Shown here: piece by piece, positions 28,290 through 49,933 of the stretch
How positions within the stretch are numbered: position 1 is the first letter of the stretch
How the letters are laid out: each line of letters starts with the position of its first letter
Origin: Candidatus Omnitrophota bacterium
GTDB lineage: Bacteria > Omnitrophota > Gorgyraeia > Zapsychrales > Zapsychraceae
DNA: 64,000 bases
Direction: 5' to 3'
NCBI GenBank assembly: GCA_029261055.1
Contig: JAJDCA010000080.1
Location: 8,952 to 72,951, forward strand
The notes under the pieces: model-generated
Seen by the model: the letters and a program-made list of their open reading frames with translations, nothing else
The model's database searches: none
Told to the model about the DNA's origin: nothing
Position numbers and translations under genes: made by a program

Positions 28290-28317
28290 TTTCTAAATAT
28301 ATTACCTGTTATCTAAT

Positions 28318-29868: not shown

Positions 29869-29895
29869 CGCAATGAATTCCTTTTATTATTTCTC

Positions 29896-30396: not shown

Positions 30397-32255
30397 CTTA
30401 AAATCTCCTTAAAAGTAAATCGCTCCATAGTTATGGCGTCGACGGGACAACGGATCGCGCACAAAGCACACCGAATACACTTTTCTTCATCTTTAATAAT
30501 AGCCGTCAATTTATCTGTTTGTTTTCTCTTTTTCATAAGGTCAAACAATTTAAAAATTGATTTGTCTCCTTGCAGCTTAGCTACGGGGACTAGCTTTAAA
30601 CACAATTCAGGACAGACATCAACACATCCGCCACAAAGGATACATTTATTTCCATCAAAAATAGTATTAACCCCGCAGTCCAGACAACGAGCCCCCTCTA
30701 TTTGGGCCTGCCCAGAGGTAAATCCTTTTTCAATAACAATTTTATGATTAAACATTCTATCTTTAACATCAACTGTTTCAAATACCTGGCGTCGAATTTT
30801 CTCATACCCCATCTCCCGGGAATAATCTTCAATTGGCGTGTGCACTTTTTCTATTTTTGTCTCTATTTTTATACCGCTTACTTTATGATAAATCGACCGT
30901 GCAACTTTTTTACCGCTCGCGATTGCATCAATCATCAAACGGGGGCCATAAGCCAGATCACCGGCCAGAAAAACGCCATCGGCACTTGTTGAAAAAGTTT
31001 CTGGATCACAAACAATATTACCCCGCTCATTTATTTCTAGCCCATCTTTTTTAGGATCAATGAAGGAAACATCCGAACTCTGTCCGACTGCAAACAGGAC
31101 CGTGTCCGCTTCCAGGGTAAGAGTATCGGAAGGGTCATATTGAGGATTAAACCGATTATTTTCATCAAAAACCGAAGTTACTTTGTAAAACAAAACACCT
31201 TTAACTCTTCCCTGCTCTGTTAAAATTTTTTGTGGGCCGTAACCATTGTGGCGCATAACTCCTTCTTCTTCTCCCTCTAAAATTTCGATCTCATCAGCCA
31301 GCATTTCGTTTTCCGATTCAAGACAAACCAAAGAAATATGTATACCTTCCCGCTCATGCAAAGCGGTGTTGACCACATCCACTTGTTGCTGCCGAAGGGC
31401 TGATCGGGCAATGTCATAAGCGACATTCCCGCCGCCAATGACAACAACTTTAGTTCCGATGTCACGAGGTAGATCAAGGGACACGTCTCTCAAGAATTCA
31501 ACGCCGCCTAAAACTCCGGAAGCATCAGCCCCGGGAATTGGTAGAGACCTCGACTTTTTGCAGCCAACAGCAATCACAACAGCATCATGGCGCCTTCGCA
31601 GCTCCTCAAAAGTTACATCTTTACCGACAGTACAACTTGTTATGATTTTAACGCCCAATGATTTAATAACTCCAATTTCCGCATCGATTAATTCTCGCGG
31701 AAGTCGATATGCGGGGATTCCTAAATAAAGCATTCCTGCCGGAATAGGCTCCATTTCGTATATCGTTACTGAAAAACCCATTAAAGCAAGATCATGCGCC
31801 CCAGCAAGGCCTGCCGGTCCTGAACCAATAATTCCGACACTTTTTTCATGCATTTTTTTGAATTTTCCAGATTCCACATTGATTAAGAAAGCTCCCAAAT
31901 CTTCAATATCAATACACTCTCTATTCTCTAAATTTGTACGAATTTTTTTGATAACGTCTAATGGTGTTTTTAGTGCTTCTGAATTTTCTACCGCAGACCG
32001 TTTTAGACCTCTAATAGAAACACTTTTGTCAATACTACCGCGCCGACAGGCAGCTTCACAAGGAGCGCCGCAAACACGGCCACAAATAGAAGCTAAAGGA
32101 TTAGGGGCACGTGCGATCAAATAGGCCTGCTCAAAATTCCCTTCTGCAATAGCCCGGACATATCCGCGTGCATCCGTATGTACAGGGCAGGCATACTGGC
32201 ACTTAATTTGCTTTTTCCAATAATTGGAATTCGGGATTTCGACTTTCAGCTTCAT
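30393..32255 (-). CDS. GltD-like FAD/NAD(P)H-dependent oxidoreductase Fe-S flavoprotein with C-terminal 2x[4Fe-4S] ferredoxin domain
   Basis: N-terminal Fe-S motif C..CP.......C..C....C. Two Rossmann GxGxxG motifs (GIIGSGPAGLAGA, VVIGGGNVAYD). C-terminal CILCGGCVDVCP and CIRCALCAIRCP. Confidence 0.8.
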   Translation of the reverse strand: MKLKVEIPNSNYWKKQIKCQYACPVHTDARGYVRAIAEGNFEQAYLIARAPNPLASICGRVCGAPCEAACRRGSIDKSVSIRGLKRSAVENSEALKTPLDVIKKIRTNLENRECIDIEDLGAFLINVESGKFKKMHEKSVGIIGSGPAGLAGAHDLALMGFSVTIYEMEPIPAGMLYLGIPAYRLPRELIDAEIGVIKSLGVKIITSCTVGKDVTFEELRRRHDAVVIAVGCKKSRSLPIPGADASGVLGGVEFLRDVSLDLPRDIGTKVVVIGGGNVAYDIARSALRQQQVDVVNTALHEREGIHISLVCLESENEMLADEIEILEGEEEGVMRHNGYGPQKILTEQGRVKGVLFYKVTSVFDENNRFNPQYDPSDTLTLEADTVLFAVGQSSDVSFIDPKKDGLEINERGNIVCDPETFSTSADGVFLAGDLAYGPRLMIDAIASGKKVARSIYHKVSGIKIETKIEKVHTPIEDYSREMGYEKIRRQVFETVDVKDRMFNHKIVIEKGFTSGQAQIEGARCLDCGVNTIFDGNKCILCGGCVDVCPELCLKLVPVAKLQGDKSIFKLFDLMKKRKQTDKLTAIIKDEEKCIRCALCAIRCPVDAITMERFTFKEILR

Positions 32256-32257
32256 AG

Positions 32258-33340
32258 TTAAACGGGAATGGAAGATACTTTGTTTATTGAATCAAATTTA
32301 TAGTTATATATTTTTCTTTCTTTCATTTTTCTTAATTGATCATAAAACTCAGATATTTTCTGGGCAATAATCTGTTCTACAAGAATACTGGAATCTTTTC
32401 GTTTCTCCATATTGTCTTCAACAACTTTATCTAAATCATCAATAGAAAACAAAAGAACGTTTTCTATTTTTGCCACATTAGGGTCGATATTGCGTGGCAT
32501 AGAAATATCCAATAACAATAATTTCTTATTCCTTCGTTGTGCCATAACTTTTGTTACTAAATTCCTTTCAACGATTATATGGGGAGCATTGACAGAGCAG
32601 ATGCATACGTCTACTTTTTTTAAAATTTGCTCAATTTCACTAAAGGGAACAATTTTTCCTCCGATTTGTTCCGCTAACTCTGCAGCATGAGCCGTTGTCC
32701 TGTTCATAATGTATAAATCTTTGACGTTTTTGCTTTTTAACTGCCGACCTGTCAGGGTGCTCATCTTTCCTGCCCCGATTATTAAAACAGACTTATTGCT
32801 AAGGGTTTCTATCATGTTTTCGGCCATTGTGACGGCGGCCCAACTCACTGAAGAGCCGCCTGCTCCAATAGACGTTTCATTTTGTGCCTTTTTGCCGCAC
32901 TGAATCACTAAATTAGATAAAATATTAAATAAAGAAGATAACATCCCCTTTTTTCGTGACAAGTTTACGGCAGCTTTTATTTGACCTAATATTTGTTTTT
33001 CTCCTAAAACAAGAGAATCCAATCCGGTGGCAACACGGAAAAAATGATCGACGGCTACTTGATCGGTCAGTGAATAAAAATGTTTTTTTAAAGGCGAAGT
33101 TATATCAAGATGTTTGATTTGAGCTAACAGTCCAATCAATGAGTCAGGCGTAAAGTTTGAAATCGTATTTACATATATCTCGGTACGGTTACAGGTCGAG
33201 ACAACAATTGCTTCAATGATACTTGGATATGATTTAAGTTCACTAAGTAAAAGTTCCTGTTCCAAGTCCCTCAAATAAAATTTTTCCCTGACTTCTATGG
33301 GGGCGGTTTTATGATTAATGCCAACAACCTGTATTTTCAT
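32258..33340 (-). CDS. hemA: Glutamyl-tRNA reductase
   Basis: N-terminal MKIQVVGINHKTAPIEVREKF, catalytic-Cys region TCNRTEIY, NADPH-binding GAGKMS. Confidence 0.9.
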   Translation of the reverse strand: MKIQVVGINHKTAPIEVREKFYLRDLEQELLLSELKSYPSIIEAIVVSTCNRTEIYVNTISNFTPDSLIGLLAQIKHLDITSPLKKHFYSLTDQVAVDHFFRVATGLDSLVLGEKQILGQIKAAVNLSRKKGMLSSLFNILSNLVIQCGKKAQNETSIGAGGSSVSWAAVTMAENMIETLSNKSVLIIGAGKMSTLTGRQLKSKNVKDLYIMNRTTAHAAELAEQIGGKIVPFSEIEQILKKVDVCICSVNAPHIIVERNLVTKVMAQRRNKKLLLLDISMPRNIDPNVAKIENVLLFSIDDLDKVVEDNMEKRKDSSILVEQIIAQKISEFYDQLRKMKERKIYNYKFDSINKVSSIPV

Positions 33341-33900
33341 CGTTTATCTTTCATAATAGATGCGACACTTCCACAGTTATTCAGATTTCTAAAAAGCAAA
33401 CTTTGCTCATCAGAATGCAGCTCTTGGTCAATACACATATAAAGGCTTTTCTTTTCTATCTCAAAATGGCTTTGGATTAAATAATAAAAGAATGCTATTT
33501 TCTCGCCCACACTCTCAATACACAGTTTTTGTTCTTTCGCATTCTCAGCGGAATAAATTGATTTGAGGGTCTGATTGATTTTTCTTAAACTTTTCTTTAT
33601 TTCTTTATTTTCTTCCTGAAATATATGAATCAATGGGCTTAGGCGAGGGATGTGAGCTTCAAAAAAAGGAAAAACGATTTTTTCATCCAATCTTATATAC
33701 AACAATAGTTTGTTTTTAATTTCTTCTGCCATTTTACAAAGTTTTTGTAAATTTACCTCAAGGCAAGCCTTTCCTACATAGGGGAGACTTTGAGAACAAT
33801 TCAAGAGCTGGTTAGCTTTTTGTAGAATTATTACCTGATTTTTTTCAAGAAACACTCTAATTTCACCTGAACGAAACATACTTATTTTCATTTTTGACAT
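33337..33900 (-). CDS. Hypothetical protein, possibly hemerythrin-like (H-x3-E repeats)
   Basis: Overlaps the hemA start by 4 nt (translational coupling). Has HIFQEENKE and HFEIEKK motifs. No confident family assignment. Confidence 0.35.
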   Translation of the reverse strand: MSKMKISMFRSGEIRVFLEKNQVIILQKANQLLNCSQSLPYVGKACLEVNLQKLCKMAEEIKNKLLLYIRLDEKIVFPFFEAHIPRLSPLIHIFQEENKEIKKSLRKINQTLKSIYSAENAKEQKLCIESVGEKIAFFYYLIQSHFEIEKKSLYMCIDQELHSDEQSLLFRNLNNCGSVASIMKDKR

Positions 33901-33980
33901 TGTAGTAATTTATCAGCACTGAACATTCTTTGCTGTGATAAATATCACTTTCTCGAATAAAAATGTTGTTTAAAATATTC

Positions 33981-34679
33981 CTAATCTTCCATAAGGAGTC
34001 TTTGTAATTCCGCTATTTTATTGATTCCTATACGTTTTGATTGGACATCAATTATTTTCTGACGTTTCAGTTGGCTTAAATGTCTGGTGACCGTTTCTCT
34101 TGTCGTTCCGATACGGTGGGCAATTTCTTCACGGGTAAAAAGGAGGTCGAATGTATCGATTTTTTGCCCTTGGACAATCATTTGTTCATACATATCGATA
34201 AGGAATTTGATCAATTTTTTTTTGCTATTATTGAGTGAAATGTCTTCCATAAACGAGCAAAGCTGGCACATTTTTTTTGCAAAAACTTGATTCAAAGCTT
34301 GCGAGACATTCAGATTGTTTTGTACCAATTGGGTATAATGTGTTCGGCCAAGCACCCAGACGCGGCAATCTGTCAGGGCTTGAGCGGAGGAACTACATTG
34401 CCAAGTTACCGCCCCAGGGTTACAGGCACATGTATCACCCGGTTCCAAAATTTCAATAATCTGCTCTCTTCCCGAAGGTGCGGTCCTAAACACTTTTATT
34501 CGTCCTGACATTACGACAGTGATATTCTGGCATTCATCTCCTGACAAATGAAGAACGCGCCCCTTTGTATATGATTTTTCTATCAAACACTTTGAAATAT
34601 GATTCAAGTCTTTTATCGAAAGTTTTGAAAAAAATGGGACGTCCCGTAATTTAATTAACGATTTTGTTTTTTTTGACAT
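33981..34679 (-). CDS. Crp/Fnr family transcriptional regulator
   Basis: cNMP-binding beta-roll followed by the C-terminal HTH RETVTRHLSQLKRQKII. No classic FNR N-terminal Cys cluster, but internal Cys residues are present. Confidence 0.8.
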   Translation of the reverse strand: MSKKTKSLIKLRDVPFFSKLSIKDLNHISKCLIEKSYTKGRVLHLSGDECQNITVVMSGRIKVFRTAPSGREQIIEILEPGDTCACNPGAVTWQCSSSAQALTDCRVWVLGRTHYTQLVQNNLNVSQALNQVFAKKMCQLCSFMEDISLNNSKKKLIKFLIDMYEQMIVQGQKIDTFDLLFTREEIAHRIGTTRETVTRHLSQLKRQKIIDVQSKRIGINKIAELQRLLMED

Positions 34680-34704
34680 AAAGTAAGCCTGATGACTAAA
34701 GTAT

Positions 34705-36093
34705 TTAAAATATTCCGAAAAATTGACCTGCTACGATTAAAAATCCCAAACCACAAGCGCTTGAGATGGCCACCCCGTAGGATTTTTTATTCCAAAAAAT
34801 TAATACAAATCCAAATAAAATGCTGACTAACCCAATGGAAGAAAATATTTCATGATAATTTTCAACAGGTGGACGCGACATAATAATCGTAAATGAAATC
34901 ATTGCCCAGGCGTGAAGGATAAAACCTAAAATCAGCAGAAATAATGAAAAGTATGTAAAAAATGTCCTTTTAAACAAAATGTACAAAATACTCATGAAAA
35001 GGGCTATGCCGTAAAATAATTTAGTCCACAATAAAGGATTTAAATAGTTATTAAAAATTTCTATTTTAAAATGCCATGCATTAAAATTCTTCTCGCCTGA
35101 AAGAACAAGTCTGCTTTTTATCGACCGCTGAAAAGCTCGCACATCCATATCAAATTGTAATTGTTCGCCATTCCAGTAATACACAACAAGATTTCTTAGA
35201 AAATTTATTTCCTTCTCTATTTCCGGATTCTTAAACTCCCTGTTAATTGCCTCCCAAGGACTACTCCAAAATTTGTCTTGAGGATTAAGTGTTGGTATCA
35301 TTGCCACGGAACTACTTTCATAAGACATTGACCAGCGAAGAAGATTCCCCAGCAAACGTAATAACTCCTTTTCCTGGAGAGTTCTCTCTTCAATAGTTTT
35401 TTGATCAACATTTTTTGTAGCTGACATAATGGCTTCAGCTTTTGAAGCGATATCTAAAAAACTGTATAAATTCTTCCCCTGTGATAAATTGAGTAGTTGA
35501 ACAATATCATCGTTATTTACTTGAAAATCTATGTTTGGAATGGCAAAAGAAAAACTATTGGCAAGATTTGTATACAATACAATATTTTGATAAAGACGAA
35601 TGACGTCACTCTCAAAAATATTCCGATTGTTTTCTTTAATCCCCTCCGCTGATTTAGCCAGATCAATTAACTTTTGCAAGCTCGGTTCAATTTGGGCAAA
35701 GCTATATCGTCCCTTTGCTTCAGTCGCAATCTCTAATTTTGAAAGAACCTCAGCATTATTGATTAAAAAAACCTTATCTTTTCGTGTGTTTCCAGGAGAG
35801 AATAAAATTTTTGCAAGCCATTCTATTGCCGGTTTTTGGTTAAAAGAATTCTTCCCGGAAAATTGCACCATAAAACCTCGAGCATACGTATCAAGTGGCT
35901 TTATTCTCCCCTGGTCTAAAATGGCCATTGTCTTAAAATATTCCAAAGAAGATATTCCTTTAGATTTTATATTTTGCGACAAAGGGAAAATTTGCTGAGC
36001 ATAAGTATTAGACAATACGCCCCATGAATTAATAAAAATAAATATAAATATGATGTGCTTAAACATTTTTTTGTAATGTGACAATGTAAACAA
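34705..36093 (-). CDS. Membrane protein with a large periplasmic N-domain and four C-terminal TM helices, hypothetical
   Basis: Signal peptide, about 330 aa of soluble domain, then a C-terminal hydrophobic bundle. It follows the Crp/Fnr regulator. Confidence 0.45.
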   Translation of the reverse strand: MFTLSHYKKMFKHIIFIFIFINSWGVLSNTYAQQIFPLSQNIKSKGISSLEYFKTMAILDQGRIKPLDTYARGFMVQFSGKNSFNQKPAIEWLAKILFSPGNTRKDKVFLINNAEVLSKLEIATEAKGRYSFAQIEPSLQKLIDLAKSAEGIKENNRNIFESDVIRLYQNIVLYTNLANSFSFAIPNIDFQVNNDDIVQLLNLSQGKNLYSFLDIASKAEAIMSATKNVDQKTIEERTLQEKELLRLLGNLLRWSMSYESSSVAMIPTLNPQDKFWSSPWEAINREFKNPEIEKEINFLRNLVVYYWNGEQLQFDMDVRAFQRSIKSRLVLSGEKNFNAWHFKIEIFNNYLNPLLWTKLFYGIALFMSILYILFKRTFFTYFSLFLLILGFILHAWAMISFTIIMSRPPVENYHEIFSSIGLVSILFGFVLIFWNKKSYGVAISSACGLGFLIVAGQFFGIF

Positions 36094-36185
36094 TTAGTCT
36101 TAAGTAAAAAATGAAGAAATGCTATTTGAGGAAATAAGGAATGTAAAATTAGACAAAGATAAAAATATAGAAATTCCCTATAAAC

Positions 36186-36644
36186 CTATATCGTATAGAG
36201 AATAGGAGGAGCATGGGCGGGTGATGTGATAAGAAATACGATTTTAAACCTGTCGGTGCCAGGCGGGTCCAAATAATGGAAGGAATTCCAAATTTCGGAC
36301 AATTGAGAAATTTCAGCAACAACCAAAACAGCAGAATTGTTAAAAAAATCTAAAAAGTTTCTTAAGAAATCAAATGTTAAATTTTGTTTTGATGTGATGC
36401 TGACCGCTTTGATCGTAGAGCAACAAAAAGAGTCTTCTTCATCTTCATGGCTAGACGTTGCATCTTCTGAATGGGTTTCTTCATCGGATTGACTATGTGC
36501 TGCTTCAGCAGAATCGTGATGGGGGCCGCATTCAGAGGAAAGGGCTAAAGACGAAATCCCGCAAAAATTTAGTAATAGCGCAAATGAAAAAATGATAACT
36601 GGGGCAAATTTCCACTTTCTGATTGTAGAATTGATCAATTTCAT
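36186..36644 (-). CDS. Small secreted acidic His/Glu/Asp-rich protein of the 'FCCSTIKA' family (copy 1)
   Basis: Signal peptide. HSQSDEETHSEDATSSHEDEEDSFCCSTIKA. Paralog of 38344..38802. Conserved promoter/operator immediately upstream. Confidence 0.5.
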   Translation of the reverse strand: MKLINSTIRKWKFAPVIIFSFALLLNFCGISSLALSSECGPHHDSAEAAHSQSDEETHSEDATSSHEDEEDSFCCSTIKAVSITSKQNLTFDFLRNFLDFFNNSAVLVVAEISQLSEIWNSFHYLDPPGTDRFKIVFLITSPAHAPPILYTI

Positions 36645-36662
36645 CTTACTCCCTTTACAATT

Positions 36663-36706
36663 AATTATATACTAAACCCTACTGCAGTCAAGGATTTTGA
36701 AAAACA
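36663..36706 (-). promoter_or_regulatory. Sigma-70-like promoter (TTGACT-16-TATAAT) with an upstream partially palindromic element conserved with 38829..38871
   Basis: Reading the minus strand gives GTGTTTTTCAAAATCCTTGACTGCAGT...TATAAT, ending about 11 nt before the ATG. Confidence 0.4.
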
Positions 36707-36964
36707 CTGGCGACTTCCTTTTACACCGTTTTTCTATTTTCAATCCTTTGTTCTACTTAATCTTAAATCTCTGATAGTTATCATTCCTGAGAAATTTCGC
36801 CCAAATGCTCAACGAGATGATGAAGATCCTCTGCATCGGGAGGAGATTCTATACAGCTGCTTTGTTCACTTTAACCTTACTCTCTAAGGCAATAATTACA
36901 TACCCAATTACAAAAATTATGATCATCAACATGCTTATAAGGCTTCATTCTCGTTATGGTGGCC

Positions 36965-38212
36965 TTATTTTGCAAAGACCTCATGTTTTTGAAATATGGA
37001 AATCAAGGCTTCTACATTCTTATCAATATCAAATTTCTTTATCACCATTTTACGGCCATTCTGCCTAAAATTATCTGCAGGGAATTGCCCAATAAGCATT
37101 CTTGAAATGGCCGTAGACAGCGCCGACTCATTGCGGGGTTCAACTAAAATGCCGGTTTTATTATGAATAATCACCTCAGGAATACCTGAAACCTTTGTCG
37201 CAATAACAGGGGCTCCCATCGCTAAGGCCTCCAAAAGCACATTAGGGATACCATCACGGTCTCCATTGCGTGCAATGACACTAGGAACTACAAAAACCGC
37301 TGTCTTCTTAAAGTATTTCTTGATTTGCTCCTGATCAACGGAACCAGGCATTTGGATATACTGCTTAAGTCCTAATTTATTCCGTAAATTTTCCAATTCC
37401 TTTCTTAAGGGGCCTTCACCAACAAGGATACATTGAAAATTAACATTTTTACGGTTCAATATGTCACAAGCCTTAATCAAATACTCAAAACCCTTTTGTT
37501 CAACAAGGCGTCCTATGGCTAAAATTATTTTTACTTTATTCTTATTCACATTATCTAAATGAATCGGTGAAGGTATCGAAATCGAGTCTTCGGTAAAATT
37601 AAATTTTTTTATGTCAAGACCATGATAGTTCACTTCTAGTTTATTTCTTTGAATGTTATCTAAATAATTTTTATTTGCTTGCGTACACGTTACGGCAAAT
37701 GTCGCCTTTTTTAATTTTTCCCCTAAATCAATTTTAGTGCTTAAATAAATATCCCAAGCATGAGCCGTAAAACTAAAAGGAATCCCGAGTAATTCGTTAA
37801 TAATCTCGGCTCCTGTTGTTGGCATAGTTGCCCAATGAGCATGAAGGTGATGGATATTGTGTTTGTGCATTAATCGCGCAAAATACAATGATTTTAAAAA
37901 AACACATGAGGTTTTTAAAAATTTCTCAGCAGGCCATAAATTTCTTAGTACCTTAAAATATAAAATTTTGCATAATACTCTGGGCTTTTTCTTTAACCAA
38001 TACAAAAAAGAACTAAACTCTAGATTAGAGGCATAATATGTTTGTCCCAATAAGTTTTTAGCCTCAGGATGAATAATTTTATCTTTGCATTTTTTCAGAG
38101 AATAAATGTAAAAATTTATTTCTTTTTTTTTCAGTGCGGTAAATTCTCTCAAGATAAAAGTTTCATGCATTTCCGGAAATTGAGATATTAAGAATCCAAT
38201 TTTTCGCATCAT
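36965..38212 (-). CDS. Family 1 (GT4-type) glycosyltransferase
   Basis: C-terminal E.FG.P..EA.A.G.PVIATKVSGIPEVI motif of retaining GT-B glycosyltransferases. Confidence 0.85.
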   Translation of the reverse strand: MMRKIGFLISQFPEMHETFILREFTALKKKEINFYIYSLKKCKDKIIHPEAKNLLGQTYYASNLEFSSFLYWLKKKPRVLCKILYFKVLRNLWPAEKFLKTSCVFLKSLYFARLMHKHNIHHLHAHWATMPTTGAEIINELLGIPFSFTAHAWDIYLSTKIDLGEKLKKATFAVTCTQANKNYLDNIQRNKLEVNYHGLDIKKFNFTEDSISIPSPIHLDNVNKNKVKIILAIGRLVEQKGFEYLIKACDILNRKNVNFQCILVGEGPLRKELENLRNKLGLKQYIQMPGSVDQEQIKKYFKKTAVFVVPSVIARNGDRDGIPNVLLEALAMGAPVIATKVSGIPEVIIHNKTGILVEPRNESALSTAISRMLIGQFPADNFRQNGRKMVIKKFDIDKNVEALISIFQKHEVFAK

Positions 38213-38343
38213 TTTATTATCCTCGTTCTCTCTTTTTATTATCGGTTAAAATGGCGTTACTACGCCGTGATTCTAGAAAGCTGTCCGACAAATGAATATC
38301 AATGACAAACTAACTAGATAGAATTTAAAGGAAGTACTTATGC

Positions 38344-38802
38344 TTATATGGAATAAGCAAGAGGAGGTGCGTGGGAAGGTGTAGCTTTAAGAAAAATAGA
38401 TTTGAATAAAATACTGCCTGGTGGTCCGGGATCATGCGTGGAACCCCAAACAAAAAGAATCTGAGGGGTTTTTTCTATAAAAACAAATTGGGAGTGATAT
38501 GAAAATCGAGAGGAATTCCCCCGACTATCGGAAAATAATATTTTCTGAGGTGAAATACCGATGGCTTTAATAGTAGAACAGCAAAATTGGTCTTCTTCAT
38601 CCTCATGAGAATTGGCTGGATCTTCTGAATGGGTTTCCCCATGACACTGGCCATGTTCTTCCGTAGCTGCCTCTTGATGATGTTCAAATTCATCGGGATA
38701 TGCAAAGGCATCAATGCTGCAAAAATTGAGCAGCAGTAAAAAAACAAAGATGAAAACAGCAGTTATTTTACTTTTTTTAAGTATTTTCCTTATTAACTTC
38801 AT
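38344..38802 (-). CDS. Small secreted acidic protein of the 'FCCSTIKA' family (copy 2)
   Basis: Signal peptide. HGQCHGETHSEDPANSHEDEEDQFCCSTIKA. Conserved upstream promoter/operator. Confidence 0.5.
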   Translation of the reverse strand: MKLIRKILKKSKITAVFIFVFLLLLNFCSIDAFAYPDEFEHHQEAATEEHGQCHGETHSEDPANSHEDEEDQFCCSTIKAIGISPQKILFSDSRGNSSRFSYHSQFVFIEKTPQILFVWGSTHDPGPPGSILFKSIFLKATPSHAPPLAYSI

Positions 38803-38828
38803 CTTTATTGTCTTCCATTTTTTAAAAA

Positions 38829-38871
38829 ATTATACACTTAATGTACTGAAATCAAGGAGTTTTTAAACTCC
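38829..38871 (-). promoter_or_regulatory. Sigma-70-like promoter (TTGATT-15-TATAAT) overlapping a perfect 7-2-7 palindrome, GGAGTTT-TT-AAACTCC
   Basis: The motif ACTGAAATCAAGGAGTTTTTAAACTCC is conserved with 36680..36706 upstream of the paralog. Confidence 0.4.
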
Positions 38872-38885
38872 CTGATCTTTTATAT

Positions 38886-39233
38886 TCAATCTTTGACTTC
38901 TAATAACTTGAACAATCTTTTTCTGAGATTTTCACGGCAACCAAGAACATTACAAGATTCACCTGACATCTTCTCTTTGATCATAATTTCAGCAACAACA
39001 TCGTCTAAATCAAGCATAGAAACGACGCTAATAAGTTCTTTTTCTCTTGCCGTTTTTGCGGTTTCTATTAGTTTAACCGTTGGAACCCTCTGAATAAGCT
39101 TTTTATATCCAATATCCCTTAGTTCATGTTCATCATATTTACAGAAACATTTTTGGGGACATCTGCAATGTTTTTTAAATTCTATTTTATCGTTCATTGT
39201 AATTTTATATTTATAACGAATACGACAAATCAC
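38886..39233 (-). CDS. Small Cys-containing protein, hypothetical, immediately downstream of the HD-GYP gene
   Basis: HCRCPQKCFC and CNVLGC motifs. A more likely start is the internal MNDKIEF. Confidence 0.35.
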   Translation of the reverse strand: MICRIRYKYKITMNDKIEFKKHCRCPQKCFCKYDEHELRDIGYKKLIQRVPTVKLIETAKTAREKELISVVSMLDLDDVVAEIMIKEKMSGESCNVLGCRENLRKRLFKLLEVKD

Positions 39234-39237
39234 GCCA

Positions 39238-40071
39238 TTAAAGTTTTAAATTTAAAAATGTAGTTACCACATCTTTATTTAAATATTTCCCGGAGGCCTC
39301 CTTTAATTCGGAAGTAATGACCTCCTTCGTCAATGGATCTCTATATGATCTAGCCGTATTCATGGCATCAAAGGCATCAGCAACGGCTATAATTTGAGAT
39401 CCTAGAGGAATTAATTTTTTTTTGAGGCCATCTGGATACCCACTTCCATCACATTTTTCATGATGATGAAGAATAATTTCTTTTTCTTTAGATAAGAACT
39501 TTAAAGGTTTGAGTATTTGAACACCTCTTCTGGGATGATCTTTCATGATTTTCCACTCTTCATCATTAAGCGTATCCTCTTTTCTTAAGATATTATCATC
39601 GATGCCAATTTTACCAAGATCATGTAAGATGGCTGCTCGTTCAATTAATTTTTGATCTTCAACCGGCAGCTTCATTGCTTTGGCAATAGCTAAAGTATAT
39701 TCTGCAACTCTTTTTGAATGACCATGTGTATAAGGGTCTTTTGCTTCCGCCGTTAAGATTAAAGTTGAAATCATATCAATTTCAGCACGTTCCAGTTTGC
39801 TTTGAGCATTAATTAAATTTTTATTTAACAATTGAAGCCTTCGTTTATCTTTTAATTCTTGAATCCAAATATAAAACATCAAGCCTAAGACTACAATTAA
39901 AATTATCTTGTTTGCCAAAAAACTACTCGGGAATACAGCCATGCAAAAGAAATGCATGAAAACTAAAAAAAGAGCAAGCACTACGATTAAGGATTTATAT
40001 TTTTGGTGCAAGAAAAAAGTTTTGTTCAGCCGGACTATTTTATCTTTGTGTATTTTCTTGGTTACCTTCAT
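39238..40071 (-). CDS. Membrane-anchored HD-GYP domain cyclic-di-GMP phosphodiesterase-like protein
   Basis: Two N-terminal TM helices. HD motif (HDLGKIGI) and HHHEKCDGSGYPDGL (GYP). Confidence 0.85.
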   Translation of the reverse strand: MKVTKKIHKDKIVRLNKTFFLHQKYKSLIVVLALFLVFMHFFCMAVFPSSFLANKIILIVVLGLMFYIWIQELKDKRRLQLLNKNLINAQSKLERAEIDMISTLILTAEAKDPYTHGHSKRVAEYTLAIAKAMKLPVEDQKLIERAAILHDLGKIGIDDNILRKEDTLNDEEWKIMKDHPRRGVQILKPLKFLSKEKEIILHHHEKCDGSGYPDGLKKKLIPLGSQIIAVADAFDAMNTARSYRDPLTKEVITSELKEASGKYLNKDVVTTFLNLKL

Positions 40072-40162
40072 TTAACTAATCCTTTTCTTTTCTGTTCGAT
40101 TGCTGCAATGTTCCCGTCAGAATCGTAAATTTAGCGGTTATATTAGGAACAGATAACATTAT

Positions 40163-40597
40163 TTATTCCTCATTTAATGGCATCATCACAATACTACCAT
40201 CTTCAAAATTAAACTCACCGCTAAAATTAGCAGAAAAATGTTTTTTATCCTCAGTAAATAAAATATATAATGTTTTATTATCATTCATATTTTTTAAAGT
40301 CGCCCCGTATAATCCATCCTTATTTTTATAAATTCTTTTATCACTAATTGATAACCAATGTACATCTAGAATTTCTCCATCAATGGGCAAGTTATAAAGG
40401 TATATTATTAATAAAGCATTGTCGACTAGTTCCACTACCCGTAGAACTTCGGCTTGCTCCTTTAATTCTTGATTGTAATTAATCAATCCGAAACTAAAAT
40501 CAGGTATAAAAAATGATACGCTGACAAAGAATATAGTAATAACCACAATCGAATGCCAATTAGCCATCTTAACCAGCGAACATCTATTCTTAAACAT
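40163..40597 (-). CDS. Membrane-anchored hypothetical protein
   Basis: N-terminal TM, otherwise no recognisable motifs. Last gene of the CopA operon. Confidence 0.35.
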   Translation of the reverse strand: MFKNRCSLVKMANWHSIVVITIFFVSVSFFIPDFSFGLINYNQELKEQAEVLRVVELVDNALLIIYLYNLPIDGEILDVHWLSISDKRIYKNKDGLYGATLKNMNDNKTLYILFTEDKKHFSANFSGEFNFEDGSIVMMPLNEE

Positions 40598-40610
40598 GAC
40601 AGATCTCCTG

Positions 40611-42887
40611 TCATAATTTTAAGTTCCGTAATCTTAACGAATTTCCAATAACCGACACCGAACTAAAGCTCATCGCTGCTCCTGCAATTATCGGACTTAA
40701 AAGCAAACCAAAAAATGGATAAAGAACTCCGGCAGCTATCGGAACGCCCAGAGTGTTGTATATAAAAGCGAAAAATAAATTTTGCCGAATATTTTTCATC
40801 ACAGTCCTGCTTAAATACAATGCTTTAACAATCCCATTTAAATCTCCCTTAACTAAGGTTATTTCGGCACTTTCGATGGCAACATCGGTTCCGGTGCCCA
40901 TGGCAACGCCAATTTGAGCTTCAGCTAATGCCGGGGCATCGTTTATGCCATCACCAGCCATCATCACAACAGCTTCTTCATTCTTAAATTGTTTAACAAT
41001 GTCTTGTTTATCTTTCGGTTCTAGTTCAGCACGAATATCATCAATTCCCAATTCTTTAGCTATAGTTTGAGCTGTTCCTTGATTATCCCCTGTTAACATG
41101 ACTACTTTTAGTCCCATCTTGTGTAGTGCTCGAATGGCCTTTGGGGTCGTTTCTTTAATAGGATCAGCAATGCCTATAAGTCCTGCCATATATCCATCAA
41201 CAGCTACCCAAACTACTGTTTGCGCTTGTGCGTGTAGACGTGACGCTTCATTCTTCAAGTCTTCCGGTATGTCAATACCAGCCTTTTGAATAAATTTCTT
41301 TTTACCAAGCAAGATATTCTTTGCATTGACTTTTCCTTTTACTCCTCCACCGGTTACAGAGTCAAAATCCTTAACAGGGTTAAGACTCCAGTTGTGTTTT
41401 TTTGCATAATCAACTACGGCTCTGGCTAAGGGATGCTCACTACTGTTTTCTAATGAAGCTGCTAGCGTCATAAAGGCACTATCATTCCAGCCTTTTACCG
41501 CGATACAAGAAACAACTTTAGGTTTTCCCTCGGTCAGAGTACCTGTTTTGTCTATCAGAAGGTGTGTCACCTTTTCTGCTTTTTCAATAGCTTCGGCATT
41601 CTTAATTAAAATACCGCTTTGTGCTCCTCTTCCGACACCAACCATGATTGACATCGGGGTAGCCAAACCGAGAGCACAAGGACATGCAATAATTAAAACA
41701 GCAACAGCATTAACTAATGCATAAGCAAGCGCTGGCGCCGGCCCCCATATTGACCAAGTAATAAATGTAGCAATAGCACATAAAATAACGGCAGGAACAA
41801 AATACCCCGATACTTGATCAGCAAGTTTCTGAATAGGGGCACGGCTTCGTTGAGCTTCGGCAACCATATGGACAATTTGTGATAACAATGTTTCTGAACC
41901 GATTTTTTCAGTTTTCATCACAAAAGTTCCAGTTTGGTTAACAGTTGCTCCGATAACTATATCCCCTTCTTTTTTAACAACGGGGATGGGCTCTCCCGAT
42001 ATCATGGATTCATCAACCGTACTTTTTCCTTCAGTAAGCACACCATCCAGAGGGATTTTTTCTCCGGGACGGACACGCAGTAAATCTCCTTTCTGCACAT
42101 CATCAATAGCAACTTCTTCCTCTTCTCCATTTTTAAGACGATGAGCATTTTTAGCGGCAAGACCTAAAAGCGCTTTAATGGCATGACCTGTTCGATTGCG
42201 TGCTTTTGCTTCCAACAATTGTCCTAAAAGAACCAAAATCGTAATAACGGCCGCGGCTTCAAAATAAATACCGATTTCACCATGTTTTTTTAATGACTCA
42301 GGGAAAATATCCGGAAATAACACAGCCACAGCACTATAAACGTAGGCGGTGCCAACACCCATACTGATCAAAGTAAACATATTCAAGCTTTTGTTTAAAA
42401 TAGACTTCCAACCCCGAACAAAGAATATTCCACCAGCCCAAAAAACGACGGGTGTTGCTAAAATAAGTTGTATCCAATTTGAAACTTTTTGTGAAATAAT
42501 TGATTTCAAATCTAGTCCCGGGATCATCTCGCCCATCGCTAGAAGAAAAACAGGGATGCTAAAGGTAACACCCGTCCAAAATTTAAGTAATAGTGCTCGA
42601 AGTTCACGATTATTCTTTTCCTCCTCTCCATCTGTTATACTTTTTGGCTCGAGAGGCATGCCGCATTTAGGGCAATCTCCAGGCTTGTTTTGTTCTATTT
42701 CAGGGTGCATCGGACAGGTGTAAATGCTTTTTCCCGAAGTATCAAAAAAATGAGGATCGGTTTTCTGACCAGAGATAAATTTCTTTCTGCAAGCTTCACT
42801 GCAAAAATAATAGGTCTCAACATCTTGCAAAAGCTTGATAGCTTTTTTTTCGTCAATCTCCATTCCACAAATTGGATCTTTCACCAT
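40611..42887 (-). CDS. copA: Heavy-metal (Cu+/Ag+-type) P1B-type ATPase with N-terminal TRASH/YHS-type metal-binding domains instead of HMA domains
   Basis: Transmembrane CPC motif. DKTGTLT phosphorylation site, GDGINDAP hinge. The N-terminus has DPICGMEID...[12 protein letters not shown] plus a CPMHPEI...CPKCGMPL zinc-ribbon. Confidence 0.9.
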
Positions 42888-42901
42888 ACTACCCCTCGTA
42901 A

Positions 42902-43228
42902 TTAAATGGATTTCCCTGTTCTGATACTTGTCGCTTCTTCAACCGGAGATACGACAACTATACCATCGCCTTTATACTCTGTTTGAGCATTTTTAATGAT
43001 GGCCTTTTTAATTTCCTGGACTTCATTATCATCACATATTAATTCAATCTTTATCATTTCTGTATAATCAGACCCTATAGCACTATCAAAATGGTCGTAC
43101 TCTTTAAAAGCACCATGACCGACCTCTTCCACATGAACAGCCATCAGCCGCTGAATTTTTAATTTTTCCAGGACATCCAAAACATTACTGGATTTGTAGG
43201 TTCTGACATATGCTTTGATTAACTTCAT
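42902..43228 (-). CDS. P-II family (PII-NG-like) protein adjacent to the P-type ATPase
   Basis: Colinear with 4962..5300 and GlnB over the beta-alpha-beta core (KAYV...[19 protein letters not shown]). Confidence 0.65.
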
Positions 43229-43260
43229 TTTGACACCCCCCTTTAAGTGTTATTAACCAT

Positions 43261-43797
43261 CTATGAAAATTCACATTTTTTTATTTCGTTAAAAAGCTCT
43301 TTACCTTTTGAAGAGTTAATTATTGTATAACGTTCCAGAATTCTTAACTTAAGCCCATAAATAAGGACATATTCAAAATCGAAATAGTGTCCCGACACCA
43401 ATTCATCTAAATACTCCCAACGCGTTTTATCCAACAATTTTTCTGCTTCAATTAAATTTGTCATCTTGCCTGCTTCATTAATAATTTCTACTAAATAAGG
43501 CGTACTGCCCATACCCCCTCTCATATGATCCTGTGGATCTTTATTTGCTTTTTCAGCTCTATACCGGGCAATTTCGTTTCGAAATTCTTGTTCAAACTTT
43601 ATCCAAGCATTTATCACATTATTGTTAGACTGAACGCCTTCCCCATTTTCAATTATCAATTGATAGACATGTGCATAATCTTTTTCCCATAAAAGCCTCT
43701 GACAATCTTCCATAAATTTTCTTATGGTCATAGGAGGCATATCTTCAAAACAAATCGACGGTAAACTTGTTGAAAAATAATAATATGCTTTTCTCAT
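43261..43797 (-). CDS. Hypothetical cytoplasmic protein
   Basis: No recognised motifs. Co-directional within the CopA operon. Confidence 0.4.
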   Translation of the reverse strand: MRKAYYYFSTSLPSICFEDMPPMTIRKFMEDCQRLLWEKDYAHVYQLIIENGEGVQSNNNVINAWIKFEQEFRNEIARYRAEKANKDPQDHMRGGMGSTPYLVEIINEAGKMTNLIEAEKLLDKTRWEYLDELVSGHYFDFEYVLIYGLKLRILERYTIINSSKGKELFNEIKKCEFS

Positions 43798-43833
43798 TTA
43801 GAATTTTAGAAAAACTTTCCATTATAATATTTA

Positions 43834-44106
43834 TTATTCAAAAAATGAAAGCGTTTCCTCTCTTTTCTTTACTTCTTTCTCGTATTTTTCATTTAATTGC
43901 TGCATTTTTTCTTTATACTCGGCATAAGTACACGTGCCTCTAATATGCTCAAGTTCCAGGGCATCACGAGTTTGCTTATATTCAGAAAAATGCGAATCTA
44001 CTAACCATGTTCTTGGGATATGTAAATAATTATGCCAAGGTTCTTTTCCTGCATAACTGCATCCAATTAAAAATAAAGCTAGAAACAACATAAATAAATT
44101 TTTCAT
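43834..44106 (-). CDS. Small lipoprotein, hypothetical
   Basis: Signal peptide with lipobox LIGCS. Confidence 0.45.
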   Translation of the reverse strand: MKNLFMLFLALFLIGCSYAGKEPWHNYLHIPRTWLVDSHFSEYKQTRDALELEHIRGTCTYAEYKEKMQQLNEKYEKEVKKREETLSFFE

Positions 44107-46061: not shown

Positions 46062-46233
46062 AATAACTTCTATCTTCCTCGGGAAAGCTTGTCATCAATA
46101 AATATCCTCCAAACATAAAAACCATATAGAAAAATAAGGCAATGCTCGTTTTAATATTAAGAAACGGAAATAAAGAAATAGAAATTAATGGAATTATGCA
46201 TCCAATCAATATATTTATTTTATATTTCTTCAT
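46033..46233 (-). CDS. Small 2-TM membrane protein (DUF2933-like?), paralog of 46501..46728
   Basis: GCIIPLISI...FMFGGYLLM. Translationally coupled to the neighbouring genes. Confidence 0.4.
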   Translation of the reverse strand: MKKYKINILIGCIIPLISISLFPFLNIKTSIALFFYMVFMFGGYLLMTSFPEEDRSYFDDKKHGCH

Positions 46234-48036: not shown

Positions 48037-48054
48037 TTTTTTATACCTCCTCTT

Positions 48055-49899: not shown

Positions 49900-49933
49900 T
49901 TTTAATCTCCATATTTTTTAAAATCCTATTTTC

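What the first reader, a model, noticed from the sequence alone, without database searches (positions are those of the whole stretch)
36186..38885. Paralogous secreted acidic 'FCCSTIKA' proteins flanking a GT4 glycosyltransferase, each behind a conserved promoter with a palindromic operator
36186..36644 and 38344..38802 share this plan: signal peptide, H/E/D/S-rich stretch (..HSEDATSSHEDEEDSFCCSTIKA.. / ..HSEDPANSHEDEEDQFCCSTIKA..), then a divergent C-terminus.
- Their upstream regions share a 27-nt motif containing the -35 box. In copy 2 this is a perfect 7-2-7 palindrome, GGAGTTT-TT-AAACTCC, overlapping -35. A TATAAT lies 15-16 nt downstream in both.
- Conserved non-coding sequence of this kind suggests a dedicated repressor site.
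- The FCCST motif echoes the FCC(S/P)TCAS core of the TRASH-like domains elsewhere in the window.
Basis: seen in the sequence. Interest (0 to 1): 0.55.

Follow-up and report, generated by a model that had tools for sequence, protein, structure and literature searches.

The report
Paralogous CutF-like exported metal-sensor proteins
Two related genes in a metal-resistance island encode small exported cysteine/histidine-rich proteins of the "CutF-like" type, each with its own conserved strong promoter; the palindrome proposed as a repressor site occurs at only one copy and is not conserved in relatives.

Summary
The two 152-aa minus-strand ORFs (36186..36644, 38344..38802) are real, old paralogs: 45% amino-acid identity with no gaps, and third codon positions are saturated. 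They belong to a rare family with no curated model, about 25 metagenomic members.

- **Family signature:** an N-terminal signal or anchor helix ending in an invariant Cys, a His/Asp/Glu tract, an invariant CC, a PP(G) motif 51-55 residues later, and a C-terminal HAPP 2-5 codons before the stop.
- **Classification:** these features, plus neighbours such as CopA, CsoR, OEP and DUF3347, meet the published rule-based definition of CutF-like (DUF2946-type) copper-sensing leader proteins. HMM hits to HYC_CC_PP, CopL, LpqS and DUF2946 are all below threshold.
- **Promoter:** a 41-nt block (TTGAYT, 15-16 nt, TATAAT, with partly conserved spacer and upstream bases) is conserved across nine loci. It shows 70% identity against 34% in the flanks, so that part of the finding holds.
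- **Palindrome:** it is really 12-2-12 with one mismatch (38851..38876). It is absent from copy 1 and from all seven related promoters. It lies 10 nt after the upstream ORF's stop and folds as a -16.5 kcal/mol RNA hairpin.
- **GT4:** it is not a conserved partner.
- **TRASH:** the resemblance is not homology (hhalign probability 2%).

The stalling-sensor mechanism is inferred, not shown.

The parts
36186..36644 (-). Copy 1 CDS (152 aa). Layout: signal/anchor helix ending LLLNFC28, His/acidic tract 36-73, CC74-75, PPG127-129, HAPP144-147, stop 5 codons after PP.
   Evidence: the closest relative P0002 (L001) is 58% identical by BLASTP
38344..38802 (-). Copy 2 CDS (152 aa), paralog of copy 1 with the same motif plan.
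   Evidence: relatives P0004 and P0024-P0027 are 64-75% identical to it
36664..36705 (-). Conserved promoter block of copy 1: -35 TTGACT at 36686..36691, 16-nt spacer, -10 TATAAT at 36664..36669.
   Evidence: 11/12 match, the best in 9 kb; PWM from foreign loci scores it 27.1 bits, the top hit in the window
38829..38869 (-). Conserved promoter block of copy 2: -35 TTGATT at 38850..38855, 15-nt spacer, -10 TATAAT at 38829..38834.
38851..38876 (.). 12-2-12 inverted repeat ATCAGGGAGTTT-aa-AAACTCCTTGAT with one mismatch. It starts 10 nt after the stop of ORF 38886..39233. It is specific to this locus.
   Evidence: repeat; RNA hairpin -16.5 kcal/mol, z=-4.1, G.U at the mismatch; absent elsewhere
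38289..38343 (-). Conserved 3' flank of copy 2 (GCAUAAGUACUUCCUUUAAAUUCUAUCUAGUUAGUUUGUCAUUGAUAUUCAUUUG), including an anti-SD-like CUUCCUUU at 38327..38334.
   Evidence: conserved in L128, L130-L134; predicted to pair with the downstream Shine-Dalgarno; weak, no covariation
38246..38266 (-). Terminator-like hairpin GGCGU-agua-ACGCC followed by AUUUUAA, between copy 2 and the GT4 gene. It lies where the relatives instead continue into an FMN_bind gene.
   Evidence: the T-run is too short to pass the scanner's threshold
36066..36185 (-). Conserved CU-rich intergenic leader between copy 1 and the downstream membrane-protein gene.
   Evidence: 76% identity to L001 over 119 aligned nt; most conserved over roughly the first 80 nt
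34705..36093 (-). Membrane protein of 453-462 aa with no family hit. It is the conserved downstream neighbour of the copy-1 type. The likely start is the ATG at 36066.
   Evidence: (the same gene starts downstream in L001)
36965..38212 (-). GT4 glycosyltransferase between the paralogs. It is a neighbour only and is not conserved with the family.
   Evidence: Glycos_transf_1; EpsE-like below cutoff; no homologue next to relatives
38886..39233 (-). Upstream Cys-rich ORF (103-115 aa, no family hit), the last gene of the CopA-DUF6488-HD run. Its stop precedes the hairpin.
40611..42887 (-). Gene that I read as a CopA-type P-type copper ATPase. I did not run a family search on this ORF. In L001 the copy-1 relative directly follows the end of this gene.
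   Evidence: Read from the translation and the N-terminal DPICGM..YYFC motif; for L001

Best explanation
**What it is.** The two ORFs are paralogous genes of a rare family with no curated model. The family encodes small exported Cys/His-rich proteins built like CutF-like (DUF2946/CopL/HYC_CC_PP-type) metal-sensing leader proteins. Each gene is a self-contained unit: a conserved near-consensus sigma-70 promoter, the CDS, and a conserved 3' leader.

**Proposed working (inferred by analogy to Rhodobacter CutF).**
1. The protein is exported co-translationally through its N-terminal signal or anchor helix.
2. The invariant CC, possibly together with the invariant Cys at the outer end of the helix and the His-rich tract, binds Cu(I) or another thiophilic metal on the periplasmic side.
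3. This modulates ribosome pausing at the invariant PP(G) and C-terminal APP motifs.
4. The pause then alters expression of the gene immediately downstream through the conserved CU-rich leader. That gene is the 453-aa membrane protein for copy 1, and ancestrally an FMN_bind protein for copy 2.

**The palindrome.** The copy-2 palindrome is not the conserved regulatory site. It is a lineage-specific hairpin at the junction with the upstream operon.

**Shown:** paralogy, family motifs and spacings, metal-gene neighbourhoods, and promoter and 3'-flank conservation.
**Inferred:** export, metal binding, stalling and cis-control.
For: **Family and motifs**
- The profile search of 1.84 billion representatives finds only 18 proteins, all 138-164 aa except one 773-aa protein (P0012, matched only over the N-terminal segment).
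- Invariant residues are C28, C74, C75, P127, P128 and P147. A145 and P146 are conserved in at least 90% of members, and H144 is the consensus residue.
- The distance from CC to the first PP is 51-55 residues in 25 of 25 members that have both motifs, although the sequence between them is largely unconserved (family members are about 21-35% identical overall). The C-terminal PP is 2-5 residues from the stop in 23 of 26 members.
- AF2 finds only the N-terminal helix 11-32; almost all of the rest has pLDDT below 50. This fits a non-globular peptide.

**Match to the CutF-like rules**
- The rules in PMC8456105 and PMC9973294 are: a small protein, a signal peptide, a central Cys motif, PP within the last 15 residues, and a same-strand downstream gene. 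All are met.
- APP and PPG are documented EF-P-dependent pause motifs (PMC4176338; PMC4140641).

**Weak HMM echoes**
- HYC_CC_PP: E=4e-4 over profile positions 1-122 of 131 for P0019.
- CopL_fam: E=0.009. LpqS: E=0.003. DUF2946: E=0.12.

**Genomic context**
- L001: the relative directly follows CopA.
- L004/L005: CsoR, then the family member, then OEP.
- L002: adjacent to CsoR.
- L003/L006: next to DUF3347 proteins.
- The window itself is a metal island with CsoR-OEP-MFP-RND, YHS/TRASH proteins and MerR. It also holds three further small CutF-like ORFs upstream of OEP, a CusB-like MFP and LspA.

**Conserved non-coding parts**
- Promoter block.
- 3' leader.
- Predicted anti-SD to SD pairing.
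Against: - No curated model reaches its cutoff. The two window proteins themselves hit nothing.
- hhalign between this family and the window's short CutF-like ORFs gives only 17% probability. Relatedness to CutF-type proteins therefore rests on architecture, not on demonstrated homology.
- The metal motif is a vicinal CC rather than CxxxC or CxxC. The proteins are 152 aa, just over the 150-aa filter of PMC9973294.
- Intergenic folds are not better than shuffles (z from -2.0 to +0.9). The consensus anti-SD/SD helix is weak at -4.3 kcal/mol and has no compensatory changes.
- The downstream gene of copy 1 lacks an obvious Shine-Dalgarno sequence.
- In the window, a hairpin separates copy 2 from the GT4 gene, so cis-control there is doubtful.
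- The fixed CC-to-PP spacing could equally reflect a small fold that AF2 missed with a 26-sequence alignment.
- Export and metal binding were not tested.
Confidence: 0.5

Rival explanations
1. The proteins are stable periplasmic or membrane-anchored metal-binding proteins, acting as a copper or thiophilic-metal buffer or chaperone that serves the nearby CopA and RND systems. They do not act as cis-regulatory leaders. The His/Asp/Glu tract and the three Cys residues bind metal in the mature protein.
For: - The 38-residue tract with 13-14 acidic residues and 5-6 His looks like a metal sponge.
- Each gene has its own strong promoter, which suggests abundant product.
- Length and motif spacing are conserved, as in a small domain.
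- There are weak hits to LpqS, a putative copper-homeostasis lipoprotein.
- The metal-gene context is consistent.
Against: - AF2 predicts no fold beyond the N-terminal helix.
- No solved-structure relative was found.
- An invariant APP placed 2-5 codons before the stop, together with conserved 3' leaders, is not explained by a binding-protein role.
Confidence: 0.3
2. A dedicated metal-responsive repressor, for example CsoR, ArsR or MerR, binds a palindromic operator overlapping the -35 of both promoters.
For: - Copy 2 has a 12-2-12 dyad over its -35, an arrangement typical of ArsR/SmtB-type operators by my own recollection.
- The promoter spacer and the 14 nt upstream of -35 are conserved above background, which leaves room for some bound factor.
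- L130 has a divergent MerR gene and L003 a divergent XRE-type HTH gene.
- L002 and L003 have a different 8-bp dyad around their -35.
Against: - The dyad is absent from copy 1 and from seven related promoters.
- No second copy exists in the window even at 3 mismatches.
- The frequency of such dyads is near chance for this AT-rich DNA.
- The spacer of 15-16 nt does not fit a MerR-type promoter with a 19-20 nt spacer.
- No G/C-rich CsoR-like box is present (by my own recollection of CsoR sites).
- The PWM of the conserved block finds no further sites in front of other metal genes in the window.
Confidence: 0.12
3. The copy-2 palindrome acts at the RNA level. It is an intrinsic terminator or insulator hairpin ending the CopA-DUF6488-HD-ORF115 transcript, and it happens to overlap the -35 of the next promoter.
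For: - It starts 10 nt after the ORF115 stop.
- It folds into a 12-bp stem of -16.5 kcal/mol with z=-4.1, and 0 of 200 shuffles fold as well.
- The single DNA mismatch becomes a G.U pair on the sense strand.
- The scanner lists the core as terminator-like.
- It is lineage-specific, as expected where a new upstream operon was joined.
Against: - The U-tract is poor. UUGAUUUC follows the short stem, and only UU follows the full stem.
- The scanner reported it on the plus strand only.
- There is a single instance, so no comparative support.
Confidence: 0.3
4. The FCCST motif marks a degenerate TRASH/YHS metal-binding domain related to those elsewhere in the window.
For: There is a local FCC(S/P)T identity with the TRASH cores FCCSTCAS and FCCPTCAS.
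Against: - hhalign gives probability 2.2% over 13 columns.
- The family lacks the third Cys of the CxxC pair and the upstream CxxC.
- No Pfam YHS or TRASH hit appears for any of 19 members.
Confidence: 0.03

Closest known systems
CutF of Rhodobacter capsulatus and the 'CutF-like' proteins (DUF2946 superfamily; PMC8456105, PMC9973294, bioRxiv 10.1101/2025.02.05.636593)
   Same: - Small exported protein with an N-terminal Sec-type signal, a central cysteine metal motif and a highly conserved PP motif a few residues before the stop.
- Located in metal-homeostasis loci, typically upstream of OEP, CusB-type or other metal genes, with a same-strand downstream gene after a short intergenic region.
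- No predicted stable fold.
   Different: - The metal motif is a vicinal CC plus a third Cys at the end of the signal helix, rather than CxxxC.
- A long His/Asp/Glu tract is present.
- There are two PP motifs: PPG at about +52 residues from CC, and APP at about +70.
- The proteins are 152 aa against 118 aa for CutF.
- Each gene has its own conserved promoter.
- Downstream genes are not multicopper oxidases.
- No significant stem-loop over the downstream SD was demonstrated.
- Homology is not statistically established.
NCBIfam NF047658 'HYC_CC_PP family protein'
   Same: - The model's name lists three motifs, aromatic-Cys, CC and PP. The window family has them in the same order: N[FY]C, CC, then PP.
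- Family member P0019 aligns to profile positions 1-122 of 131 at E=4e-4.
   Different: - The best score is 20.8 bits against a cutoff of 28.
- Only 2 of 19 members hit, and the two window proteins do not hit at all.
- I could not obtain member sequences for a profile-profile test.
- No paper mentioning the family was found.
CopL (Xanthomonas/Stenotrophomonas; NF033807) and CruR of Bordetella (DUF2946 uORF, PMC9426467)
   Same: - Cys/His-rich small ORFs that control a downstream copper gene in cis, according to PMC9973294.
- Weak CopL_fam hits for P0002, P0005 and the short ORF 13560..13829.
   Different: - The scores of 14-17 bits fall well below the 40-bit cutoff.
- CruR works independently of a signal sequence and acts through Rho termination, according to PMC9973294.
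- The Cys motifs differ.
LpqS of Mycobacterium (NF052429, putative copper-homeostasis lipoprotein)
   Same: - N-terminal signal followed by a His-rich segment, with weak hits for 4 of 19 members.
- Some window-family members are encoded next to CsoR-family regulators (Trns_repr_metal).
   Different: - All hits are below cutoff: at most 17.7 bits against 35.
- The hits cover only the N-terminal part of the profile.
- The window family has no lipobox (L-N-F-C).

Membership tests
CutF-like proteins (rule-based definition, PMC8456105 / PMC9973294) | Small protein: under 170 aa in the 2021 rules, under 150 aa in the 2023 filter. | tested here: met
   152 aa. The family ranges from 138 to 182 aa, mostly 138-164. 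This meets the 2021 limit and exceeds the 2023 filter by 2 residues.
CutF-like proteins (rule-based definition, PMC8456105 / PMC9973294) | N-terminal Sec signal peptide. | tested here: inconclusive
   Heuristics only. There are 4-6 K/R in the n-region, a hydrophobic 15-mer at residues 16-30 (mean hydropathy 2.5-2.8), and an AxA-like SLA|LS or AFA|YP site. AF2 gives a helix at 11-32. No SignalP was available. The invariant C28 inside the helix raises the possibility of an uncleaved anchor.
CutF-like proteins (rule-based definition, PMC8456105 / PMC9973294) | Central Cys-containing putative metal-binding motif. | tested here: met
   CC74-75 is invariant in 26 of 26 members. It is a vicinal CC rather than CxxxC, but the papers accept Cys-containing variants.
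CutF-like proteins (rule-based definition, PMC8456105 / PMC9973294) | [quoted passage not shown] | tested here: met
   HAPP lies at 144-147 of 152. The PP is 2-5 residues before the stop in 23 of 26 members.
CutF-like proteins (rule-based definition, PMC8456105 / PMC9973294) | Same-strand downstream gene within 1000 nt, typically in a metal-homeostasis neighbourhood. | tested here: met
   The gaps are 131 nt (copy 2 to GT4) and 92-119 nt (copy 1 to the membrane protein). Relatives lie next to CopA, CsoR, OEP and DUF3347. The immediate downstream genes here are not known metal genes.
CutF-like proteins (mechanism as shown for R. capsulatus CutF) | An intergenic stem-loop masks the downstream SD and is melted by a ribosome stalled at the C-terminal PP. 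| tested here: inconclusive
   An anti-SD-like CUUCCUUU after the stop is predicted to pair with the downstream GAGGA(G) in the window and in four related loci. However, the consensus energy is only -4.3 kcal/mol, there are no compensatory changes, and z-scores are not significant.
CutF-like proteins (mechanism as shown for R. capsulatus CutF) | Cu-dependent, EF-P-sensitive translational stalling during co-translational export. | not testable with these tools
   This needs pulse-labelling, toeprinting and efp mutants. Only the motif types APP and PPG are known pause motifs.
Pfam DUF2946 (PF11162) | HMM score at or above the gathering threshold. | tested here: not met
   The best hit is E=0.12 for 1 of 19 members. 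The window proteins have no hit.
NCBIfam HYC_CC_PP (NF047658) | HMM score of at least 28 bits. | tested here: not met
   The best scores are 20.8 bits (P0019) and 15.6 bits (P0014). The window proteins have no hit.
TRASH / YHS metal-binding domain | Profile similarity to the TRASH/YHS domains, including their conserved Cys pattern. | tested here: not met
   hhalign against the window's seven TRASH/YHS segments gives probability 2.2%. No Pfam YHS or TRASH hit appears in 19 members.
   The dyad occurs only at copy 2. It is absent in L001 and L129-L134.

The most novel reading that the evidence does not exclude
The family is a new class of co-translational, transmembrane metal sensor. A three-cysteine site would form between the outer end of the signal-anchor helix (C28) and a vicinal CC held exactly 51-55 residues upstream of a PPG pause site, with a second APP pause 2-5 codons before the stop. 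Metal capture at the SecY exit would then set ribosome dwell time and, through the conserved CU-rich 3' leader, control the downstream gene. The gene would travel as a portable promoter-sensor-leader cassette that can be placed in front of different genes: an FMN_bind protein, a membrane protein, or OEP.
Probability: 0.22. Interest if true: 0.6.

Novelty: new variant of a known kind. Interest (0 to 1): 0.38.

Why it matters
CutF-type nascent-chain copper sensing has so far been worked out experimentally only in Rhodobacter, with a related case in Bordetella. This family would extend it in several ways:
- to an uncultured low-GC lineage;
- to a different cysteine chemistry, with a vicinal CC plus a helix-end Cys;
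- to a two-pause-site architecture with ruler-like spacing.

That would give a clean natural variant for testing how the distance between the metal site and the stall site encodes sensing.

The work also corrects the annotation picture. These are not TRASH relatives, the GT4 is not a partner, and the palindrome should not be annotated as an operator. If the proteins instead prove to be ordinary periplasmic metal binders, the finding is a routine addition to a metal-resistance island.

Tried and rejected
- **Curated models.** Pfam and NCBIfam scans of the window proteins found no hit.
- **GTDB genome scans.** The family alignment found no relatives. A scan with HemA, meant to give taxonomy, returned only a 34%-identical Bacillota MAG, so the source organism remains unknown.
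- **Metagenome pattern scan.** A degenerate FCCSTIK DNA pattern gave 120 stretches, all chance matches when screened with the family HMM.
- **Lookup of the window protein's own contig.** It is not on record.
- **Plasmid tblastn.** No match for P0019 or copy 2.
- **PDB profile search.** Only a spurious hit at E=0.035.
- **Rfam.** No match on 35900..39300 at E up to 1.
- **AF2.** No fold was predicted, so no fold search was run.
- **Homology to the short CutF-like ORFs.** Not demonstrable: hhalign 17%.
- **Conserved dyads in the promoter block.** Only a weak CTTGA-N11-TTAAG dyad (4/5 match) recurs. I considered CopY-type TACAnnTGTA, FNR TTGAT-N4-ATCAA, MerR-type long spacers and CsoR G/C-rich boxes by eye and rejected each for lack of fit. 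This rests on my own recollection of those consensus sites.
- **Flanking genes of copy-2 relatives.** None is homologous to ORF115 or the GT4.
- **Literature.** No paper mentions HYC_CC_PP.

Full report
**1. What is in the sequence**

Both ORFs lie on the minus strand, copy 1 at 36186..36644 and copy 2 at 38344..38802. Each encodes 152 aa.
- They align without gaps at 45% identity, E=1e-44.
- Nucleotide identity is 57.5%: 59%, 71% and 42.5% at codon positions 1, 2 and 3. This is an old duplication under protein-level constraint, not a recent segmental copy.
- A tblastn of both proteins against the window finds no third copy.
- The gene between them (36965..38212) is a GT4 glycosyltransferase, matching Glycos_transf_1 at 1e-40. 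It is EpsE-like but below that model's cutoff.
- The N-termini have 4-6 K/R, a strongly hydrophobic segment at residues 16-30 and an AxA-like site. Residues 36-73 have 13-14 D/E, 5-6 His, no K/R and pI about 4.1-4.2.
- Contrary to the finding, the C-terminal halves share PPG at 127-129, FK..FL, and the ending HAPPxxY(T/S)I.

**2. The family**

- A word-indexed search of 5.8 billion proteins found only the two paralogs and one relative, P0002, 58% identical by BLASTP.
- A full HMMER profile search of 1.84 billion representatives found 18 proteins at E up to 1e-3. All but one (a 773-aa protein matched only over the N-terminal segment) are 138-164 aa. Further searches brought the set to 26.
- Invariant residues are C28 at the outer end of the N-terminal helix, C74-C75, P127-P128 and P147. 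A145 and P146 are nearly invariant.
- The distance from CC to the first PP is 51-55 residues in all 25 members that have both motifs, although the intervening sequence is largely unconserved (family members are about 21-35% identical overall).
- The C-terminal PP lies 2-5 residues before the stop in 23 of 26 members.
- AlphaFold2 with the 26-sequence alignment predicts only helix 11-32. Almost all of the rest has pLDDT below 50, with a mean of 49.9.
- There is no solved-structure relative.

**3. Relation to known families**

- No Pfam or NCBIfam model reaches its cutoff, and the window proteins hit nothing.
- Sub-threshold hits among family members point in one direction:
  - HYC_CC_PP: P0019 at E=4e-4 and 20.8 bits against a cutoff of 28, over profile positions 1-122 of 131; P0014 at E=0.017.
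  - LpqS: four members, best E=0.003.
  - CopL_fam: two members, best E=0.009.
  - DUF2946: one member, E=0.12.
- The literature describes CutF-like proteins, whose closest Pfam model is DUF2946. They are small exported proteins with a central Cys motif and a highly conserved C-terminal PP motif, usually upstream of metal genes such as OEP, CusA/B, CusF, TonB-like proteins and PCuAC. CopL, CruR and CzcI belong to the same network (PMC8456105; PMC9973294).
- In Rhodobacter, nascent CutF senses periplasmic Cu during co-translational export. It stalls at its proline motif, which melts a stem-loop over the cutO ribosome-binding site (bioRxiv 10.1101/2025.02.05.636593).
- The window proteins satisfy every rule of that definition except the 150-aa cap of the later paper.
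- APP and PPG are documented EF-P-dependent pause motifs.
- The idea that FCCST echoes the TRASH core fails. hhalign between the family and the window's seven YHS/TRASH segments gives 2.2% probability over 13 columns.

**4. Genomic context**

- The window is a heavy-metal island. It holds what I read as a CopA-type ATPase (40611..42887; identified from its translation, not from a family search), a CsoR-OEP-MFP(DUF3347)-RND run (51607..58115), a second OEP-MFP run, a MerR gene and many YHS/TRASH proteins.
- Context of relatives:
  - L001: the copy-1 relative sits directly after the end of CopA and before the counterpart of the 453-aa membrane protein.
  - L004/L005: CsoR, then the family member, then a 38-aa ORF, then OEP.
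  - L002: next to CsoR.
  - L003 and L006: next to DUF3347 proteins.
- Relatives of copy 2 (L128-L134, 64-75% identical) have no ORF115 or GT4 homologue beside them. They are followed by an FMN_bind/RnfG-like gene in L128, L132, L133 and L134. L128 then has a GT2, and L130 has a divergent MerR.
- The GT4 is therefore not a conserved partner.
- Compared with L001, the window carries about 4 kb between CopA and copy 1: DUF6488, an HD-domain protein, ORF115, copy 2 and GT4.
- A scan for small ORFs with Cys residues and a C-terminal PP found three more CutF-like genes:
  - 11580..11852, upstream of an OEP gene;
  - 13560..13829, upstream of a CusB-like MFP gene;
  - 19551..19817, upstream of LspA-Lgt.
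  - Each has a signal peptide ending A[FY]C, a Cys cluster and a C-terminal [HN]RPPIxS[SI].
  - Profile comparison with the long family is not significant at 17%.

**5. The promoters**

- Copy 1 has TTGACT-16-TATAAT at 36691..36664, the best sigma-70 match in 9 kb. Copy 2 has TTGATT-15-TATAAT at 38855..38829.
- Aligning nine upstream regions (two from the window, seven from foreign loci) reveals a 41-nt conserved block with consensus roughly GATTTAAAGAnTTC-TTGATT-GCAGTAnAGTTAAGTG-TATAAT.
- Mean pairwise identity is 70% in the block, 34% further upstream and 53% in the 5' UTR. Between copy 1 and copy 2 the block is 72% identical against 50% at fourfold sites.
- By segment:
  - -10 hexamer: 100% in all nine.
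  - -35 hexamer: 81-90%.
  - Spacer: 53% between lineages, 72% within the copy-2 lineage.
  - The 14 nt upstream of -35: 55-65%.
  - The 12 nt after -10: 25-50%.
- A PWM built only from the foreign loci ranks copy 1's promoter first in the window at 27.1 bits. Copy 2's promoter scores 13.5 bits, lowered by a 1-nt spacer deletion, and ties with an unrelated plus-strand site at 13506..13546. No comparable site lies in front of another gene.
The promoter is under selection.
- One caveat applies. The sharp drop upstream partly reflects the end of homology, because the upstream genes differ between loci. The comparison with saturated synonymous sites is the more telling control.

**6. The palindrome**

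- The 7-2-7 core extends to ATCAGGGAGTTT-aa-AAACTCCTTGAT, a 12-2-12 repeat with 11/12 matches at 38851..38876.
- It is absent from copy 1 and from all seven related promoters. Their right-arm bases are conserved as plain sequence, but the left arm is not complementary.
- No similar site exists in the window at up to 3 mismatches.
- Dyads of this quality occur 3 times in the window against 2.3 expected.
- It begins 10 nt after the stop of ORF 38886..39233. As sense RNA it forms a 12-bp stem of -16.5 kcal/mol, z=-4.1, with the lone mismatch becoming a G.U pair. The equivalent regions of copy 1, L132 and L133 do not fold.
- I conclude that it is not the conserved regulatory element. A terminator or insulator for the upstream operon is plausible despite the poor U-tract. 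A lineage-specific operator cannot be excluded.

**7. The 3' flanks**

- About 55 nt after the stop of copy 2 are conserved in L128 and L130-L134. In the window they are retained even though the sequence then diverges into a GGCGU/ACGCC hairpin with AUUUUAA (38246..38266) and the GT4 gene.
- This flank contains CUUCCUUU. RNAfold and RNAalifold pair it with the downstream Shine-Dalgarno sequence in the window and in four related loci. The consensus helix is weak at -4.3 kcal/mol, shows no compensatory changes, and the folds are not better than shuffles.
- The leader between copy 1 and the membrane-protein gene is 76% identical to L001 over 119 nt and is CU-rich.
- Rfam finds nothing in the region.
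- In the short ORF 13560..13829, the codons just after PP are predicted to pair with the SD of the CusB-like gene. That fold is also not significant.

**8. Verdict**

- The operator, TRASH and GT4 interpretations do not hold.
- The best reading is a rare branch of CutF-like exported metal-sensing leader proteins with no curated model, each carried as a promoter-ORF-leader cassette. The stalling mechanism is inferred by analogy and from motif geometry.
- A stable periplasmic metal-binding role is the main rival.
- Interest is moderate. CutF-like proteins are widespread and already described, but this variant's cysteine arrangement and ruler-like double-PP architecture are distinctive.

Noticed in passing
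window 11580..11852, 13560..13829, 19551..19817 (all minus strand): Three further small CutF-like ORFs of 88-90 aa. Each has a signal peptide ending A[FY]C, a Cys cluster and a C-terminal [HN]RPPIxS[SI]. They lie immediately upstream of an OEP gene, a CusB-like MFP gene and LspA-Lgt respectively. They give weak hits to CopL_fam and a CzcI-like model.
   Followed up: partly
window 23918..23939: A near-perfect dyad, ACCTTCCAGTATACTAGAAGGT, lies just upstream of the MerR-family gene 23462..23893. By my own recollection it resembles a CueR/MerR-type operator.
   Followed up: no
window 44106..46061 and 48055..49473: YHS/TRASH metal-binding domains are fused to unusual partners. A PEP-utilising enzyme carries a C-terminal YHS domain, and a T2SSE/PilB-like ATPase carries N-terminal YHS plus TRASH.
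   Followed up: no
window 1..64000: Every ORF that gave a family hit lies on the minus strand across the whole 64 kb.
   Followed up: no
L002 and L003, about 60-110 nt upstream of the gene start at 8001: In these distant family members an 8-bp inverted repeat, AAACTCGT ... ACGAGTTT (7/8 in L002), brackets the -35 TTGACT of a near-consensus promoter. L003 also has a divergent XRE-type HTH gene. This may be a lineage-specific operator, different from the window's dyad.
   Followed up: no
L130 3..242 (minus strand): A MerR-family regulator gene is transcribed divergently from a copy-2-type gene. Its counterpart in the window (46% identical over 70 aa) is the MerR gene at 23462..23893, far from the paralogs.
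   Followed up: partly
L128 819..1094 versus window 36965..38212: A GT2 glycosyltransferase follows the copy-2-type gene in L128, after a short FMN_bind remnant, where the window has a GT4. These are different GT families, so this may be coincidence.
   Followed up: no
window 13436..13580 (minus strand): In the short CutF-like ORF, the codons directly after the PP motif (AAUUUCUUC) are predicted to pair with the GAGGAGGUU Shine-Dalgarno of the downstream CusB-like gene. The geometry resembles CutF, but the fold is not better than shuffles (z=0.22).
   Followed up: partly
window 38886..39233: A Cys-rich ORF (HCRCPQKCFC..., 103-115 aa) with no Pfam or NCBIfam hit follows an HD-domain protein and a DUF6488 protein downstream of CopA.
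   Followed up: partly
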